Origin: Calditrichaceae bacterium
Lineage (GTDB): Bacteria; Calditrichota; Calditrichia; Calditrichales; JBFXGD01
DNA: 64,000 bases
Reading direction: 5' to 3'
NCBI GenBank assembly: GCA_050173015.1
Contig: JBFXLE010000012.1
Location: 1-64,000, forward strand
Both the position numbers and the translations under genes were made by a program. Shown piece after piece: positions 44,215 through 48,243 of the stretch; within the stretch, counting starts at the first letter, position 1; each line of letters opens with the position of its first letter. Below the pieces are notes generated by a model that saw nothing but the letters and a program-made list of their open reading frames with translations, was not told where the DNA came from and made no database searches.

Positions 44215-44568
44215 ATGTTACGAAACGCGGTTATCCGCTGGCTTATTAATTCAGCGGCATTGTGGGTGGTTGATGTTATGTTTGACGGGATTTGGTTTGA
44301 CAGCACGGGAGCACTGCTTATCGCGGCGCTGATTTTGGGACTTTTAAATACCTTGCTCAAGCCAGTACTGATTTTATTCACCCTGCCGATAAATTTTATG
44401 ACACTGGGACTTTTCACCATTGTTATTAACGCTATTATTTTGGAATTAACCAATTTTTGGCTTGATAGTTTTCATATTTCAGGTTTCGGAGTGGCTTTAT
44501 TAGCGGCGATTCTCATCAGTATTGTCAGCATTCTTCTGCAAAACCTGCTCAAGGACGATCGCTCCTAA
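44215..44568 (+). CDS. 4-TM membrane protein (YvlD/DUF360, 'phage holin 4_2' family)
   Basis: ALILGLLNTLLKPVL..LTLP..TLGLF pattern. Confidence 0.85.
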   Translation: MLRNAVIRWLINSAALWVVDVMFDGIWFDSTGALLIAALILGLLNTLLKPVLILFTLPINFMTLGLFTIVINAIILELTNFWLDSFHISGFGVALLAAILISIVSILLQNLLKDDRS

Positions 44569-44585
44569 TAACATCACAGAACGGT

Positions 44586-45812
44586 CTATCTCGTCAGAGC
44601 CGGATTGTGAAGGATATAGCCGTTTGAATCCATCCGGTATTTTCTCTTCAGTTCCAGCGTATCGGCCGGAAGAAGCGCCATAAATCCGAATCTCTCCCTG
44701 ATATCGTCAATTGCTGTATTAAGAGCCTCCATGCGCGTTTTTTCATCAAACAGATAAGACTGAAATCCACAAGGCTCGACTTGTCCCGCGGTGACTCCCA
44801 CATGGCGTATGCGTATCCTGCGAAAGCGGATTTCTTCAAAAATACGGCTGACGGCGATGAACAGATCCTTTCCGTCATCTGATGGATGAGTCAGGCTCAG
44901 GCTCCGGGCATGGCGGGTGAAATCGGAATAGCCGATTTTTACCGTCAACATTCGGCAAACCAGATCCTGTTCCCGTAATTTTTTCGCGATCCGTTCCGTA
45001 AGATATTGAAGAGTTCCCTTTACAATTGACATATCAGATGTGTCTTCTTCAAAACTTGTTTCCCTGCTCAATTGTCGCGGAATTATACGAATTTTTACTT
45101 CCCGGTCATCGATGCCGTTCGCGAGCTCCCACATTTTGATGCCGTTTTTTCCGAATAGTTGCTCAAGGATTAGTTTTGACAGGCGCGCCAAGCTTCCAAC
45201 GGTAAAAATGTGTAAATCGGTCAGTTTCTCTTTGGTCATCCTGCCGATGCCGGGTAAAACATCAACAGGCAGACCGTTTAAAAATTCATTCTCCTTATCA
45301 AAAGGAATTTGCGCGATCCCCCGTGGTTTATTCAGGCCGGATGCAATACGCGCAATGGTTTTCGTGCTGCCGATACCTACGGACAGGCCCACTCCCACTT
45401 TTTGCCAGACTTCTTCGGTAATATTTTTGGCTATTTGTATCGGCGCCGGATGCAGATGCAATGTCCCCGTTAAGTCAAGATACGCGTCATCCAGAGATGT
45501 AAATTCAACTAAGGGTGTGTATTTTAGATAGACATTATGAAAAACTTCAGAAACAGCGCGGTAGTGGTCATAATTGCCTTTCAGAAATACGGCATTCGGG
45601 CAGATGCCTTTTGCTCGCGTAAGTGGCATACCGGTGCGGATACCGTGGGCGCGGGCTTCGTAGCTGGCAGTATGCACGACGCCGCGTTGATCTGCCCTTC
45701 CGCCGACAATAACGGGTCTGTCGCGTAAAAGTGGATTAAATCCCTGTTCGACCGACGCGAAAAAGGCGTCCGCGTCAATATGCATTATGGTGCGATGCTG
45801 TCTTTTTATCAT
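44586..45812 (-). CDS. dinB: Y-family DNA polymerase (DinB/Pol IV-like)
   Basis: HIDADAFFASVE, ASYEAR..G, SLDDAYLD, LPGIG HhH, little-finger domain, QSYLF clamp-like motif, DDIRERFG. Confidence 0.92.
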   Translation of the reverse strand: MIKRQHRTIMHIDADAFFASVEQGFNPLLRDRPVIVGGRADQRGVVHTASYEARAHGIRTGMPLTRAKGICPNAVFLKGNYDHYRAVSEVFHNVYLKYTPLVEFTSLDDAYLDLTGTLHLHPAPIQIAKNITEEVWQKVGVGLSVGIGSTKTIARIASGLNKPRGIAQIPFDKENEFLNGLPVDVLPGIGRMTKEKLTDLHIFTVGSLARLSKLILEQLFGKNGIKMWELANGIDDREVKIRIIPRQLSRETSFEEDTSDMSIVKGTLQYLTERIAKKLREQDLVCRMLTVKIGYSDFTRHARSLSLTHPSDDGKDLFIAVSRIFEEIRFRRIRIRHVGVTAGQVEPCGFQSYLFDEKTRMEALNTAIDDIRERFGFMALLPADTLELKRKYRMDSNGYILHNPALTR

Positions 45813-45849
45813 AATTAAAAAGTACGAAAATTTTTAACCGGCATTAAAT

Positions 45850-46104
45850 TCACCCCTGTAAACAGACGCGGGCAATTTGCCATTCAAGGCTGGAATCTTC
45901 AAAAAGTAATTCAAAATAGTCGGAACTGTCGGCGATAATGGAAAAATGGTATTGTTTGTTGTGCCCCTGGTGACTGACCCAATGACCATTGAGTTGATTG
46001 ATTTTGTAAACCCGGCCATTCCATTTGAAGCGCAGCGGTTTCATCTGTCCTTCCTTAAAATAGCCTATTACCTCAATGGGCTCGAAAATATCCTCAAAAA
46101 TCAT
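45850..46104 (-). CDS. Small beta-rich protein, DUF6504-like
   Basis: EPIEV...PLRFKWNGRVYKI...HW...FELLF...W pattern; co-oriented directly upstream of dinB. Confidence 0.72.
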   Translation of the reverse strand: MIFEDIFEPIEVIGYFKEGQMKPLRFKWNGRVYKINQLNGHWVSHQGHNKQYHFSIIADSSDYFELLFEDSSLEWQIARVCLQG

Positions 46105-46138
46105 CTTAATCCCGCGACTAAATTTTATTTCATTAAAA

Positions 46139-46152
46139 TGTACAAACGTACA
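46139..46152. promoter_or_regulatory. Candidate SOS box TGTAC-AAAC-GTACA
   Basis: Palindrome shared with the lexA upstream region; just downstream of a minus-strand TTGCAT-N17-TATATT promoter (46185-46157). Confidence 0.78.
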
Positions 46153-46306
46153 CCAGAATATATAAAGTCATCTTTAAAAATGCAATCAAAAAACGAAAAA
46201 AAGAGATCCAGGGATGTAAAAAAACTCAGCTTGTATAAACTGATGAGGATGATGATAAAGAATTTAGATAGCTGTCAGGACGAAAAAATGTAACGAATAG
46301 AAACTT

Positions 46307-46759
46307 TCAAAGTTCTCTGATGACAGTGACAACTTTGCCGATAAGTTCAAAGTCAGGAGTGCGCGGATCGACAATGAGAGGAGATACGGAGGCATCGGCT
46401 GTTTCAAGCCGGATGAGATGCTTGTCATAATATATTTTCCGGACGTAAATGCGGTGTCCCAGCTTGATGACGCCGATATCGCCATTGTGAAGCTGAGGAG
46501 TCAGGTTGACCGTAAGAAAATCACCGGAAAGAATGCCCGCATTGGAAAGTCCGTTGTCAATGGCTTTAAGCGTGATGGATCTTGTATCGTTTTCCTTAAA
46601 ATTACTGATGATCTCACCAATATTATAATTCCCGTTGGTATGAAAGTTATTCTCCATGCGAACTTCGCCAAGAAGCGGGATATTATAAAATTCAGAGTTA
46701 AGACCGGAATCTTCGGCCCGATATACACCTTTCAAGATAAATAAATCCCTTTTGTTCAT
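46307..46759 (-). CDS. HTH-less LexA/UmuD C-terminal (peptidase S24-like) domain protein, predicted catalytically inactive
   Basis: Aligns by eye to the LexA CTD (IPLLGEV, NAGILSGD, NGDI, IGKVVTVIRE), but the A-G site and Ser/Lys dyad are substituted. Confidence 0.8.
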   Translation of the reverse strand: MNKRDLFILKGVYRAEDSGLNSEFYNIPLLGEVRMENNFHTNGNYNIGEIISNFKENDTRSITLKAIDNGLSNAGILSGDFLTVNLTPQLHNGDIGVIKLGHRIYVRKIYYDKHLIRLETADASVSPLIVDPRTPDFELIGKVVTVIREL

Positions 46760-46810
46760 GATAACTAAGAGTAAATTTAATATCAGATAAAATTAAAATA
46801 CAAACTCCTG

Positions 46811-47428
46811 TTAATGTACCATCTCCCGGATGAGACCGATGACCCGACCTTGAATTGACCAGTCGCTCTGCGGGTATATATCACTGTATCCGGGATTTTC
46901 AGCCTTCAGAAATGGCTTCCCCGTATCGGTGATCAGCCTTTTTACCGTGACTTCATCTTCAATAAGGGCCACTACGATATCTTTGTTGGCGGCTGTATTG
47001 CATGACTGCACCACAACCAGATCATCTTCCAAAATTCCGGCGTTTATCATACTGTCGCCGCGCACTTTTAAGGCAAAATACCGGCCTTCCAGTTTGATCA
47101 TCGCTCTTGGGATGGGTATATAACGCTCGACATTTTCCTGGGCAAGAATCGGGAAACCCGCCGCAACACGGCCAATCAGTGGCACATCCACATCGGTACC
47201 GGAATTCGGAGCATATTCCGGATCAATAATTTTCAAAGTGCGCGCGGATGAATCCTTTTCCAGGTAACCCTTAGCGATGAGCGCGTCAATATGCTTCAAG
47301 ATGGCGTATTTTGATTTGATCTTAAGGGTATCCGCCAGCTCCTGATAAGTGGGCGCGTATCCTTTTTCTTCAATATGGCGGGCAATTAACCGCAGAATTT
47401 CTTTCTGCCTGTCAGTAAGTCCTTTCAT
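46811..47428 (-). CDS. lexA: SOS repressor LexA
   Basis: LTDRQKEIL wHTH, VAAG cleavage site, GDSM Ser, TVKRL Lys. Start ATG 47428 after AAGGGGG. Confidence 0.96.
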   Translation of the reverse strand: MKGLTDRQKEILRLIARHIEEKGYAPTYQELADTLKIKSKYAILKHIDALIAKGYLEKDSSARTLKIIDPEYAPNSGTDVDVPLIGRVAAGFPILAQENVERYIPIPRAMIKLEGRYFALKVRGDSMINAGILEDDLVVVQSCNTAANKDIVVALIEDEVTVKRLITDTGKPFLKAENPGYSDIYPQSDWSIQGRVIGLIREMVH

Positions 47429-47446
47429 GGAAACCCCCTTGTTAAA

Positions 47447-47460
47447 TGTACTAAAGTACA
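47447..47460. promoter_or_regulatory. Candidate SOS box TGTAC-TAAA-GTACA (lexA autoregulation)
   Basis: Palindrome between a minus-strand TTGATT-N17-TATTTT promoter (47492-47464) and the lexA RBS. Confidence 0.8.
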
Positions 47461-47532
47461 CCAAAAATAAATATTAACAGAGGGGAAATCAAGAAAAAAA
47501 TTTAATTAAATCAATTTAGTTAAAAAGAGGAC

Positions 47533-48243
47533 TCATCCGGATACTAATTTGATAAAATATGATTCAAAAGATTGATTTTGTTCAATTTCGGAAATCTCTT
47601 GGGCGTTAAAAATTTTCGCCACCCGGCCATTATTCAAAATAATAACAGGATCGCACCATTGCTGAATAAGAGACAGGATATGTGATGATATTATGACGAT
47701 TTTATTCAAGGCGGCTTGCTCCATAAGGTAATTTTTTAATTTATACAGAGAAACCGGGTCCAGTCCGTTCAGCGCTTCGTCAAGGATTAAAAAATCCGGT
47801 TTACCGATTAGCGCGGCGGCAATAGACAGTTTTTGCTTCATTCCGTGTGAATAATTTATGACAAGCTCATCCGCTTTGTCGTTGATGCCGTGTAGATTAA
47901 GTAAAAAATCTATCTCTTTTTGAGTATCAGTTGATTTTCTTATTTTCGCGATTAATTCCAAAAATTCACGGCCGGTAAGATACGGAAGCAATTCGGCATC
48001 TTCGGGAGCATAACCACAGTTTTGTTTAATCCGGAAGCGATTCTTGTTTAACTCCTTTCCGCGAAATTCGATCGTGCCGGAATACCCGCTGATCAACCCG
48101 ACCGCGGCTTTCAGAAGTGAACTTTTTCCCGCCCCGTTCCGGCCGATGAGTCCTGTCAATTTTCCTGGCGGAAAATCCAGACTAAGATCTTTTACGGCCT
48201 CCCGTGTTTCATAGGTGATGGTTACATTCTTAATCGATAACAT
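47533..48243 (-). CDS. ABC transporter ATP-binding protein
   Basis: GRNGAGKS, YSHGMKQK, ILDE, SSH. Start taken as ATG 48243. Confidence 0.92.
   Translation of the reverse strand: MLSIKNVTITYETREAVKDLSLDFPPGKLTGLIGRNGAGKSSLLKAAVGLISGYSGTIEFRGKELNKNRFRIKQNCGYAPEDAELLPYLTGREFLELIAKIRKSTDTQKEIDFLLNLHGINDKADELVINYSHGMKQKLSIAAALIGKPDFLILDEALNGLDPVSLYKLKNYLMEQAALNKIVIISSHILSLIQQWCDPVIILNNGRVAKIFNAQEISEIEQNQSFESYFIKLVSG

What the first reader, a model, noticed from the sequence alone, without database searches (positions are those of the whole stretch)
46307..46759. Non-cleavable, catalytically dead LexA C-terminal-domain paralog directly behind lexA
Seen, by alignment to the neighbouring LexA: VPLIGRVAAG -> IPLLGEVRME (Ala-Gly scissile bond lost); KVRGDSMINAGILEDD -> KAIDNGLSNAGILSGD (Ser nucleophile lost); VTVKRL -> IYVRKI (Lys base shifted or replaced); GRVIGLIRE -> GKVVTVIRE (dimerisation strand kept). 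There is no DNA-binding domain. Established: LexA dimerises through this domain and UmuD' is a CTD-only polymerase subunit. Inference: it could heterodimerise with LexA (anti-repressor or cleavage damper), act as a RecA* decoy, or be a constitutive UmuD'-like partner of DinB.
Basis: partly seen in the sequence, partly recalled or inferred. Interest (0 to 1): 0.75.

Follow-up and report, generated by a model that had tools for sequence, protein, structure and literature searches.

The report
Dead LexA-like partner gene behind lexA
Right after the DNA-damage repressor gene lexA, this bacterium and almost all of its phylum keep a small gene for a copy of LexA's self-cutting domain that can no longer cut and cannot bind DNA, most likely a built-in partner that tunes the repressor.

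Summary
Window 46307-46759(-) encodes a 150-aa protein with only a Peptidase_S24/LexA C-terminal fold. It has no DNA-binding domain. The LexA nucleophile Ser is Gly, the general-base Lys is Arg, and the Ala-Gly site is gone.

It is not a decaying duplicate. A family copy was found in 71 of 86 Calditrichota reference genomes, and in 69 of those 71 it lies directly downstream of lexA on the same strand. dN/dS is 0.06-0.11. Lys->Arg holds in 66 of 66 family members, and the Ser position is non-Ser in 61 of 66.

The gene appears co-transcribed with lexA behind a TGTAC-N4-GTACA box. The 84-aa ORF and dinB downstream have their own box and often sit elsewhere in relatives. The family follows lexA, not Y-family polymerases, in presence and absence. 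It has also reversed the charge of a residue that LexA uses to dock on RecA filaments.

Best reading (about 0.4): a RecA-insensitive partner that heterodimerises with LexA and yields one-headed, weakly repressing dimers. Complex prediction gives only weak support. Rivals are a UmuD-like polymerase manager and a RecA* decoy, which is disfavoured. I rate it a new variant of a known kind, not found in the literature searched.

The parts
47447..47460 (.). Putative LexA operator 1 (TGTACTTTAGTACA read on the minus strand), 19 nt upstream of the likely lexA start
   Evidence: Palindrome TGTAC-N4-GTACA. There are 6 exact sites in the 4.34-Mb genome against 2 for the backwards control. The same motif lies before lexA in 6 of 20 related loci, all in families f1-f5. 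Within the window alone 2 sites are not significant: 13 of 100 shuffles give 2 or more.
46811..47428 (-). lexA (canonical; likely start ATG 47428, MKGLT...; the ORF listing gave TTG 47464)
   Evidence: TIGR00498 lexA 203 bits (cut-off 110.95). LexA_DNA_bind plus Peptidase_S24. Ala-Gly, Ser and Lys are invariant in 16 Calditrichota LexA sequences, and M13 is the conserved start.
46307..46759 (-). The finding: 150-aa S24-domain-only, non-catalytic LexA paralog ('S24p')
46661..46693 (-). Conserved N-terminal motif E23-FYNIPLLGE-V33 (remnant of the LexA cleavage-site region, without Ala-Gly)
   Evidence: F24 is nearly invariant and P28 invariant across 63 family members. It aligns with LexA 'VPLIGRVAAG'. 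It lies in a segment with pLDDT below 50 in both models.
46550..46558 (-). D68-N69-G70, replacing LexA G-D/M-S (nucleophile Ser119 position = Gly70)
   Evidence: Profile alignment to E. coli LexA. The position is G 48, A 5, S 5, R 5, E 2, T 1 in 66 members, against Ser in 95 of 95 LexA-like rows.
46451..46459 (-). G101-H102-R103, replacing the LexA acidic patch D150-D151-E152 that contacts RecA*
   Evidence: The E152 position is R/K in 63 of 66 members, against E/D in 78 of 95 LexA-like rows. The role of the patch is taken from PMC9926225, section 6.
46436..46441 (-). R107-K108, replacing LexA K156-R157 (general base Lys -> Arg)
   Evidence: Arg in 66 of 66 members and Lys in 95 of 95 LexA-like rows.
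46310..46339 (-). C-terminal strand G141-KVVTVIRE-L150, shared with LexA (GRVIGLIREM)
   Evidence: G141 is invariant and V143 is invariant or nearly so. The strand E137-147 has pLDDT above 90.
46139..46152 (.). Putative LexA operator 2 (TGTACGTTTGTACA on the minus strand), 35 nt upstream of the 84-aa ORF
   Evidence: The same motif lies before the 84-aa ORF in L021, L026, L029 and L030.
45850..46104 (-). 84-aa conserved ORF (DUF6504-like), first gene of a second SOS unit
   Evidence: 54-98% identity in 14 of 20 fetched loci. DUF6504 scores 21.5 bits, below the 24.2 cut-off. Present in 63 of 86 genomes.
44586..45812 (-). dinB (DNA polymerase IV)
   Evidence: NF002677 313.9 bits (cut-off 256). 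IMS, IMS_C and IMS_HHH domains.

Best explanation
S24p is an old, selectively maintained pseudo-protease: a LexA C-terminal (dimerisation/autocleavage) domain with no DNA-binding domain. Its scissile bond, Ser-Lys dyad and RecA*-docking charge have all been lost.

It is made from the same LexA-repressed transcript as LexA. Most likely it pairs with LexA monomers through the conserved C-terminal-domain interface. The result is a one-headed LexA:S24p dimer that binds the palindromic operator poorly, a genetically encoded, RecA-insensitive mimic of the LexA:LexA-CTD cleavage intermediate known from E. coli.

Because S24p cannot be cleaved, it would persist through an SOS episode and titrate newly made LexA. 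That would set the threshold and the timing of re-repression.

Shown: the fold, the lost residues, conservation, synteny and phyletic coupling to lexA. Inferred: co-transcription, heterodimerisation and the regulatory consequence.
For: (1) Synteny. Of 71 genomes with the gene, 69 have lexA directly upstream on the same strand, 64 of them with 300 nt or less between the matches. The other 2 have lexA on another contig. Two further lexA-positive genomes carry it in the same slot: one partly withheld as N, one frameshifted.

(2) Co-loss. The 11 genomes without a lexA match also lack it, apart from a 23-aa fragment in G034. Seven of these 11 (G001, G025, G034, G043, G055, G057, G082, G085 among those with matches) still have Y-family polymerases; overall 82 of 86 genomes have them.

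(3) Operator layout. The TGTAC-N4-GTACA box lies before lexA and again before the 84-aa ORF, and never between lexA and S24p in 20 loci.

(4) The C-terminal strand and the core fold of LexA are kept.

(5) Purifying selection. dN/dS is 0.061-0.114 in 5 congeneric pairs; LexA gives 0.018-0.060.

(6) Published precedent. A LexA:LexA-CTD heterodimer forms in E. coli and is an inactive intermediate with weaker DNA binding (PMC3159453, passages).

(7) Complex prediction of LexA 85-217 with S24p: verdict 'weak support'. Score 0.51 (runs 0.49-0.54), best of 3 controls 0.00. The mark was reached by 116 of 157 solved complexes and 2 of 215 mismatched pairs. At 0.60 or under it was reached by only 18 of those 157 and by both mismatches that passed. 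The runs agree in at least 67% of contacts and the partner's pLDDT is at least 59.
Against: No binding has been measured. The complex score is weak and may reflect memory of solved LexA dimers, and no contacts were released.

S24p could equally homodimerise, which was not tested. The N-terminal 57 residues carry invariant positions (P28, N53) but are modelled without confidence even with 63 rows. An unmodelled partner-binding arm may therefore be the real business end.

The exact operator motif is absent from all 10 fetched loci of families f6-f8 and from 4 of 10 loci of f1-f5. SOS control is thus inferred only for part of the phylum.

Adjacency in related genomes is not independent evidence. 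Co-transcription is not shown: the promoter/terminator scan was uninformative.

The tree does not place S24p as sister to the phylum's own LexA.
Confidence: 0.4

Rival explanations
1. UmuD-like polymerase manager. S24p forms homodimers that bind Pol IV (DinB), the 84-aa protein or the beta clamp through its N-terminal arm. It would work like full-length UmuD2 or a born-processed UmuD'/HumD, without needing cleavage.
For: In the window and in families f1-f5 the gene lies within about 2 kb upstream of dinB. The genome has no other S24 gene, so there is no umuD. Both units appear SOS-controlled. The N-terminal arm is conserved yet predicted flexible, as UmuD arms are described (PMC5342242, abstract in a search listing only). 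PHROGs' best match is 'UmuD-like protein' at E 2.8e-07.
Against: S24p always stays with lexA. The 84-aa-ORF/dinB unit has its own operator, is within 1 kb in only 38 of 71 genomes, is elsewhere in 21 and was not found in 12. Where it is elsewhere, it remains next to a Y-family polymerase in 17 of 22 cases (my reading).

Genomes with Y-family polymerases but no lexA lack S24p. In family f7 the genes after S24p are DNA glycosylases, not a polymerase. Profile scores favour LexA over UmuD: 51.3 against 23.1 bits in NCBIfam, and about 45 against 22 bits against solved structures.
Confidence: 0.2
2. RecA* decoy or damper. S24p homodimers occupy the RecA-filament groove without being cleaved, like DinI or a non-cleavable LexA. 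They would slow LexA cleavage and help switch SOS off.
For: The fold is the one that docks in the RecA groove (PMC9926225). The hydrophobic pocket positions F111/L113/V153 stay hydrophobic, mostly I/L/I. The gene is likely SOS-induced, which would suit a feedback damper.
Against: The LexA acidic patch D150-D151-E152 contacts RecA K232/R243/K245, and charge-reversal substitutions of it strongly reduce RecA-mediated cleavage (PMC9926225, section 6, read). In S24p the E152 position is Arg/Lys in 63 of 66 members and the D151 position is acidic in only 18 of 66. The cleavage-site region that RecA stabilises is rewritten. The retained hydrophobic residues are core strand positions and would be kept anyway.
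Confidence: 0.07
3. A scaffold with a new, unrelated partner. The old active-site cleft, with invariant Arg107 and near-invariant Asp68, and the conserved N-terminal segment bind some other SOS-related protein or ligand. Linkage to lexA would then serve only co-regulation.
For: New invariant residues sit exactly at the former catalytic positions: D68 in 63 of 66 members and R107 in 66 of 66. N53 and P28 are invariant within a region modelled as disordered. Earlier notes of this scan describe other dead S24 domains in unrelated contexts (unchecked AI notes).
Against: No candidate partner is conserved next to it other than lexA. Nothing was tested.
Confidence: 0.2
4. A decaying tandem duplicate of the lexA 3' half, without function.
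For: Loss of all catalytic features and of the DNA-binding domain is what decay could produce. One copy, in a 62%-complete genome, is frameshifted.
Against: The frame is intact in 71 genomes with no internal stops. dN/dS is 0.06-0.11. The family has its own invariant residues. All 63 members scanned match Peptidase_S24.
Confidence: 0.01

Closest known systems
LexA C-terminal domain and the LexA:LexA-CTD heterodimer (E. coli SOS cleavage intermediate)
   Same: Same fold: Foldseek top hits are 6a2s, 1jhc, 1jhf and 3k2z. Same C-terminal strand. A DBD-less CTD paired with full-length LexA is described as inactive with weaker DNA binding (PMC3159453, passages).
   Different: Here the CTD is a separate gene, not a cleavage product. 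It lacks Ser, Lys, Ala-Gly and the RecA-docking acidic residue, and it is about 26% identical to its own LexA. Heterodimerisation is predicted only weakly.
UmuD / UmuD' (Pol V subunit, polymerase manager)
   Same: An S24 domain without a DNA-binding domain, of about 140 aa, SOS-regulated, with a flexible N-terminal arm. Profile matches to UmuD' structures have E 6e-4 to 9e-4.
   Different: UmuD has the Ser-Lys dyad and a Cys-Gly site and is activated by RecA*-mediated cleavage (PMC9926225). It is encoded with umuC. S24p has none of these, scores 23.1 bits against a cut-off of 110 for NF007621, and is encoded with lexA.
HumD of phage P1 (born-truncated UmuD' homolog; function recalled, name from NCBIfam NF051876)
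   Same: An S24 C-terminal-domain-only protein that needs no processing.
   Different: S24p gives no match to NF051876 at E 0.1 or better, while the neighbouring LexA does. HumD acts with a UmuC-type polymerase (recalled, not tested here).
Non-cleavable LexA mutants (S119A, K156A, K156R)
   Same: The same substitutions at the catalytic positions. K156R LexA is described as uncleavable and SOS-deficient (PMC5760743, passage).
   Different: Those are full-length laboratory mutants that still bind DNA and RecA*. S24p is a natural, DBD-less family.
SinI-SinR type antagonists, and Id-type HLH proteins or microProteins (recalled analogy, no call)
   Same: A working analogy only: a small protein made of the repressor's own oligomerisation module, encoded beside it, that forms DNA-binding-defective hetero-oligomers.
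   Different: Unrelated folds. For LexA no such natural antagonist turned up in my literature searches.

Membership tests
Peptidase S24 domain (Pfam PF00717; LexA/UmuD/CI C-terminal fold) | Sequence match above the curated cut-off | tested here: met
   41.5 bits against a cut-off of 23.3. All 63 of 63 family members match.
Peptidase S24 domain (Pfam PF00717; LexA/UmuD/CI C-terminal fold) | Beta-rich LexA-CTD fold | tested here: met
   The AF2 core (residues 58-150) has pLDDT above 90. There are 39 PDB matches at E 0.001 or better, and the top ones are LexA CTDs with rmsd 1.7-2.4 A.
Autoproteolytic S24 peptidases (MEROPS S24, functional sense) | Ser nucleophile (E. coli LexA S119) | tested here: not met
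   Gly70 in the window. The position is non-Ser in 61 of 66 family members.
Autoproteolytic S24 peptidases (MEROPS S24, functional sense) | Lys general base (LexA K156) | tested here: not met
   Arg in 66 of 66 members. K156R LexA is reported as uncleavable (PMC5760743, passage).
Autoproteolytic S24 peptidases (MEROPS S24, functional sense) | Ala-Gly (or Cys-Gly) scissile bond in the cleavage-site region | tested here: not met
   'GEVRME' aligns with LexA 'GRVAAG'. No conserved A-G or C-G in the family; only a remnant 'RAG' in one f5 member.
Autoproteolytic S24 peptidases (MEROPS S24, functional sense) | Self-cleavage at alkaline pH or with RecA* | not testable with these tools
   Needs a biochemical assay.
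LexA repressor (TIGR00498) | Equivalog score above the cut-off | tested here: not met
   51.3 bits against a cut-off of 110.95. Only profile positions 78-201 are matched.
LexA repressor (TIGR00498) | N-terminal winged-helix DNA-binding domain (PF01726) | tested here: not met
   No match in S24p or in any of 63 members at E 0.01 or better. The open frame leaves at most 11 extra codons. No longer fused form appears among the family hits of the representative search.
UmuD (NF007621) / HumD (NF051876) | Family score above the cut-off | tested here: not met
   NF007621 scores 23.1 bits against a cut-off of 110. NF051876 gives no match at E 0.1 or better.
UmuD (NF007621) / HumD (NF051876) | Operon with a umuC-type polymerase | tested here: not met
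   The upstream partner is lexA. The nearest polymerase is a Pol IV equivalog behind a separate operator and an intervening ORF.
SOS regulon member (LexA-controlled gene) | LexA operator in front of its transcription unit | tested here: inconclusive
   The palindrome lies 19 nt before the likely lexA start. There are 6 genome sites against 2 for the control, others being before a DnaE-type polymerase and a metallophosphoesterase. It is conserved before lexA in 6 of 20 loci. No binding data exist, and the motif is absent in f6-f8 loci.

The most novel reading that the evidence does not exclude
S24p is a natural, dedicated LexA antagonist. It would be a RecA-blind 'half-LexA' that captures LexA monomers as they are translated from the same mRNA. 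This would give the SOS switch of a whole phylum a protein-titration threshold and a memory of past damage. It would be the first SinI- or microProtein-like regulator described for LexA.
Probability: 0.3. Interest if true: 0.75.

Novelty: new variant of a known kind. Interest (0 to 1): 0.6.

Why it matters
LexA autocleavage is the textbook SOS switch, and its known modulators act on RecA (DinI, RecX) or are phage proteins. A phylum-wide, operon-encoded, non-cleavable copy of LexA's own dimerisation domain would add a new layer: regulation of the repressor by a pseudo-enzyme paralog.

It also provides a natural experiment on which S24 residues matter for catalysis, RecA docking and dimerisation. 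The first two sets have been rewritten and the C-terminal strand kept.

It is directly testable with two small recombinant proteins and one operator. If it instead manages Pol IV, it would be a UmuD analog that has dispensed with proteolytic activation.

Tried and rejected
- Decaying duplicate: rejected.
- Shifted catalytic Lys at +1: rejected, because the position is K 45, R 20, Q 1 and corresponds to LexA R157.
- Alternative Ser in 'GLS': not conserved.
- Trans-cleavage of S24p by LexA: no conserved A-G or C-G site.
- Prophage repressor module: PHROGs gives only generic UmuD-like and repressor matches, and the context is chromosomal SOS genes.
- Promoter/terminator scan of 44400-47700: 11 promoter-like sites against 7.3 expected and 4 terminator-like against 3.7 expected, so uninformative.
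- Range outside the phylum: the search for related loci could not use alignments A3 or A5 because neither has a conserved stretch. The listing of cluster members gave no organism names for 10 divergent members. Whether the family exists outside Calditrichota is left open.
- Representative search: 23 clusters at E 1e-30 or better among 1.84 billion proteins.
- Origin of the duplication: a quick tree of 160 rows and 137 columns was built. Domains under 80 aa and 'other' hits outside 100-260 aa were left out. It makes the family one clade (SH-aLRT 89, with P0093 and P0107 inside) but does not join it to the phylum's LexA clade. The sister rows are long branches, so the origin is unresolved.
- N-terminal arm: a deeper alignment of 63 rows did not raise confidence in the N-terminal 57 residues.
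- Literature: 'DUF6504' returned 0 papers and 'Caldithrix' with 'LexA' returned 0. 'LexA/S24/pseudoprotease' and 'LexA/heterodimer/C-terminal domain/dominant negative/anti-repressor' returned no paper on such a paralog among the 15 listed each. The Bacteroidetes LexA paper (PMC8565304, passages) does not mention Calditrichota or DBD-less forms.
- Earlier notes of this scan: none for this place or sequence.

Full report
**1. What is there**

The minus strand of window 44586-47464 carries four ORFs in a row:
- lexA, 46811-47464. Its likely true start is ATG 47428.
- The 150-aa ORF of the finding, 46307-46759, called S24p here.
- An 84-aa ORF, 45850-46104.
- dinB, 44586-45812.

Pfam and NCBIfam identify the first as a canonical LexA: LexA_DNA_bind plus Peptidase_S24, and TIGR00498 at 203 bits. 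They identify the last as DNA polymerase IV. S24p matches only Peptidase_S24 (E 1.3e-10, above the cut-off). The LexA equivalog model matches it over its C-terminal part alone, at 51 bits, far below the cut-off. BLASTP to the neighbouring LexA gives 26% identity, E 4e-07.

**2. The catalytic apparatus is gone**

A family profile aligned to E. coli LexA chains puts Gly70 on Ser119 and Arg107 on Lys156. 'GEVRME' stands where LexA has 'GRVAAG'.

I collected 66 family members from two searches and aligned them to one profile.
- The Lys position is Arg in 66 of 66.
- The Ser position is G 48, A 5, S 5, R 5, E 2, T 1.
- 95 LexA-like rows in the same alignment all have Ser and Lys.
- The Lys that follows Arg107 sits on LexA R157 and is not conserved (K 45, R 20, Q 1). 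The base is therefore replaced, not shifted.
- A paper describes LexA K156R as uncleavable and SOS-deficient (PMC5760743, one passage).
- New family-specific residues occupy the old site: Asp68 in 63 of 66 and Arg107.

**3. Fold**

AlphaFold2 was run with 25 and with 63 aligned relatives. Both runs give a confident beta core for residues 58-150 (pLDDT above 90) and an unconfident N-terminal 57 residues. Foldseek finds LexA C-terminal domains first (rmsd 1.7-2.4 A over 87-94 columns), then UmuD' and lambda CI. The N-terminal segment nevertheless holds invariant positions (P28, N53). It may therefore fold only on a partner.

**4. It is conserved and under selection**

Homolog search found 42 proteins of 139-157 aa at 44-100% identity. 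Those that carry a name are called Calditrichaceae or Calditrichaeota.

- In 86 reference genomes of the phylum, 74 gave a match. 71 of these are family-level matches at E 1.3e-9 or better. The other three are a 23-aa fragment and two hits on the LexA CTD itself.
- dN/dS in five congeneric pairs is 0.114, 0.070, 0.110, 0.061 and 0.072. LexA gives 0.018-0.060 in the four pairs where both copies were present. Frames were taken stop to stop, so a few upstream codons are included.
- The exhaustive representative search returned 23 clusters at E 1e-30 or better, then a sharp fall to ordinary LexA proteins near 80 bits.
- No organism names were available for the divergent members. Two attempts to scan named genomes failed for technical reasons. 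The range outside the phylum is therefore unknown.

**5. Whom it travels with**

LexA was found in 75 of 86 genomes.
- In 69 of the 71 S24p genomes lexA is directly upstream on the same strand. The match-to-match gap is 300 nt or less in 64 and 327-1612 nt in 5.
- In the other 2, lexA is on another contig.
- Four lexA-positive genomes gave no S24p hit. One has the gene in place but partly withheld as N. One has it split by a frameshift. Two have lexA cut by a contig end.
- The 11 genomes without lexA also lack S24p, apart from the fragment in G034.

Y-family polymerases are present in 82 of 86 genomes. These include lexA-less genomes such as G001 (96% complete) and G082 (one contig, 92% complete).

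The 84-aa ORF behaves differently. It is within 1 kb downstream of S24p in 38 of 71 genomes, elsewhere in 21 and not found in 12. Where it is away from S24p it still lies 900 nt or less upstream of a Y-family polymerase in 17 of 22 genomes (my reading of the coordinates). In family f7 the genes after S24p are an HhH-GPD glycosylase and Tag.

S24p is therefore a lexA companion, and the 84-aa ORF is a dinB companion. Related genomes are not independent samples, so these counts describe a pattern rather than test it.

**6. Regulation**

The palindrome TGTAC-N4-GTACA lies 19 nt before the likely lexA start and 35 nt before the 84-aa ORF. The genome has 6 exact sites against 2 for a backwards control. 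Two of the others precede a DnaE-type polymerase and a metallophosphoesterase.

The motif recurs before lexA in 6 of 20 related loci and before the 84-aa ORF in 4 of 20. It never lies between lexA and S24p.

Against this reading:
- In the window alone two sites are not significant; 13 of 100 shuffles give 2 or more.
- The exact motif is missing from all ten f6-f8 loci.
- No transcript data exist.

lexA-S24p as one SOS-controlled unit is thus an inference.

**7. Mechanism**

*RecA\* decoy.* The cryo-EM study of LexA on RecA filaments (PMC9926225, section 6 read) names a hydrophobic pocket (F111, L113, V153) and an acidic patch (D150, D151, E152). Charge reversal of the patch strongly reduces RecA-mediated cleavage. 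In S24p the pocket positions stay hydrophobic. The E152 position, however, is Arg/Lys in 63 of 66 members, against Glu/Asp in 78 of 95 LexA-like rows. The D151 position is acidic in only 18 of 66. Together with the rewritten cleavage-site region, this argues that the family has been uncoupled from RecA*.

*LexA partner.* What is retained is the core and the C-terminal strand shared with LexA. In E. coli a LexA:LexA-CTD heterodimer is a real intermediate, described as inactive with weaker DNA binding (PMC3159453, passages). A gene that supplies such a CTD constitutively, from the same mRNA as LexA, would produce the same species without RecA.

The one complex prediction allowed paired LexA 85-217 with S24p and gave 'weak support':
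- Score 0.51 (runs 0.49-0.54), best of 3 controls 0.00.
- The mark was reached by 116 of 157 solved complexes and 2 of 215 mismatches. At 0.60 or under it was reached by only 18 of the 157 and by both mismatches that passed.
- The runs agree in at least 67% of contacts, and the partner's pLDDT is at least 59.
- Solved LexA dimers may explain the pass.

I therefore put the heterodimer/antagonist model at about 0.4.

*UmuD-like rival.* The genome has only two S24 genes, lexA and S24p, and two Y-family polymerases. It therefore has no umuD, which leaves room for a UmuD-like role. The synteny and co-loss patterns in part 5 speak against S24p being a polymerase subunit. I put this at about 0.2.

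*Other partner.* A different, unknown partner for the conserved N-terminal arm and the Asp68/Arg107 site remains possible, at about 0.2.

**8. Comparison and novelty**

S24p has the S24 fold but fails every defining feature of an autoproteolytic S24 peptidase, of LexA (no DNA-binding domain) and of UmuD/HumD (scores, dyad, operon partner).

A quick tree makes the family one clade (SH-aLRT 89) but cannot say which LexA lineage it came from.

My literature searches found no description of such a protein. Subscription journals are not covered. Earlier notes of this scan list other dead S24 domains in other contexts (unchecked). Loss of catalysis in this fold is therefore a recurring theme, while this lexA-linked, DBD-less family was not among them.

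I rate it a new variant of a known kind, with moderate to high interest for SOS biology.

Noticed in passing
window 45850-46104 (-), with box at 46139-46152: The 84-aa ORF is more conserved than S24p: 54-98% identity across the phylum. It has its own putative LexA box. It is weakly DUF6504-like (21.5 bits, below the cut-off). Atlas look-alike clusters are commonest in Bacillota and Nitrospirota. It tracks the dinB-type polymerase rather than lexA. It may be an uncharacterised Pol IV accessory protein. No paper mentions DUF6504.
   Followed up: partly
window 47428-47464: The lexA start is probably ATG 47428 (MKGLT...), not the TTG at 47464 given by the ORF list. M13 is invariant in 16 LexA sequences, and the operator at 47447-47460 would otherwise lie inside the gene.
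   Followed up: partly
G000:C16:57934-57947 (L043) and G000:C4:99404-99417 (L042): The same TGTAC-N4-GTACA palindrome sits at the start of a DnaE-type polymerase gene (PHP plus DNA_pol3_alpha) and just before a metallophosphoesterase gene. These are candidates for the rest of the SOS regulon. Two further sites are one inside an ORF (C1:104626) and one between an AAA_25 gene and a 107-aa ORF (C16:81435).
   Followed up: partly
L033:2186-3082 and L033:3580-4188 (likewise L034-L037): In one family of the phylum (f7), lexA-S24p is followed by an HhH-GPD glycosylase and a 3-methyladenine glycosylase I (Tag) instead of the 84-aa ORF and dinB.
   Followed up: partly
L040:2975-3283 (also L031, L032, L038, L039; longer forms in L028-L030): A conserved ORF of about 100 aa ending '...FRRFHYLKTRLVG' follows the 84-aa ORF in several families. 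It has no Pfam match.
   Followed up: no
proteins P0067 (453 aa), P0069 (979 aa), P0074 (1064 aa): Large proteins from the representative search carry tandem S24 domains that keep the 'GDSM' Ser but have Arg at the Lys position. Their architecture and origin are unknown.
   Followed up: no
proteins P0104, P0108, P0109, P0114, P0119, P0126, P0173: LexA-length proteins (202-252 aa) with Arg at the general-base position, some also without Ser. They may be non-cleavable full-length LexA relatives from other lineages.
   Followed up: no
L046:1081-1509 (G069): The S24p copy in this 62%-complete genome is split into two frames. This is either a sequencing or assembly error or a real pseudogene.
   Followed up: no
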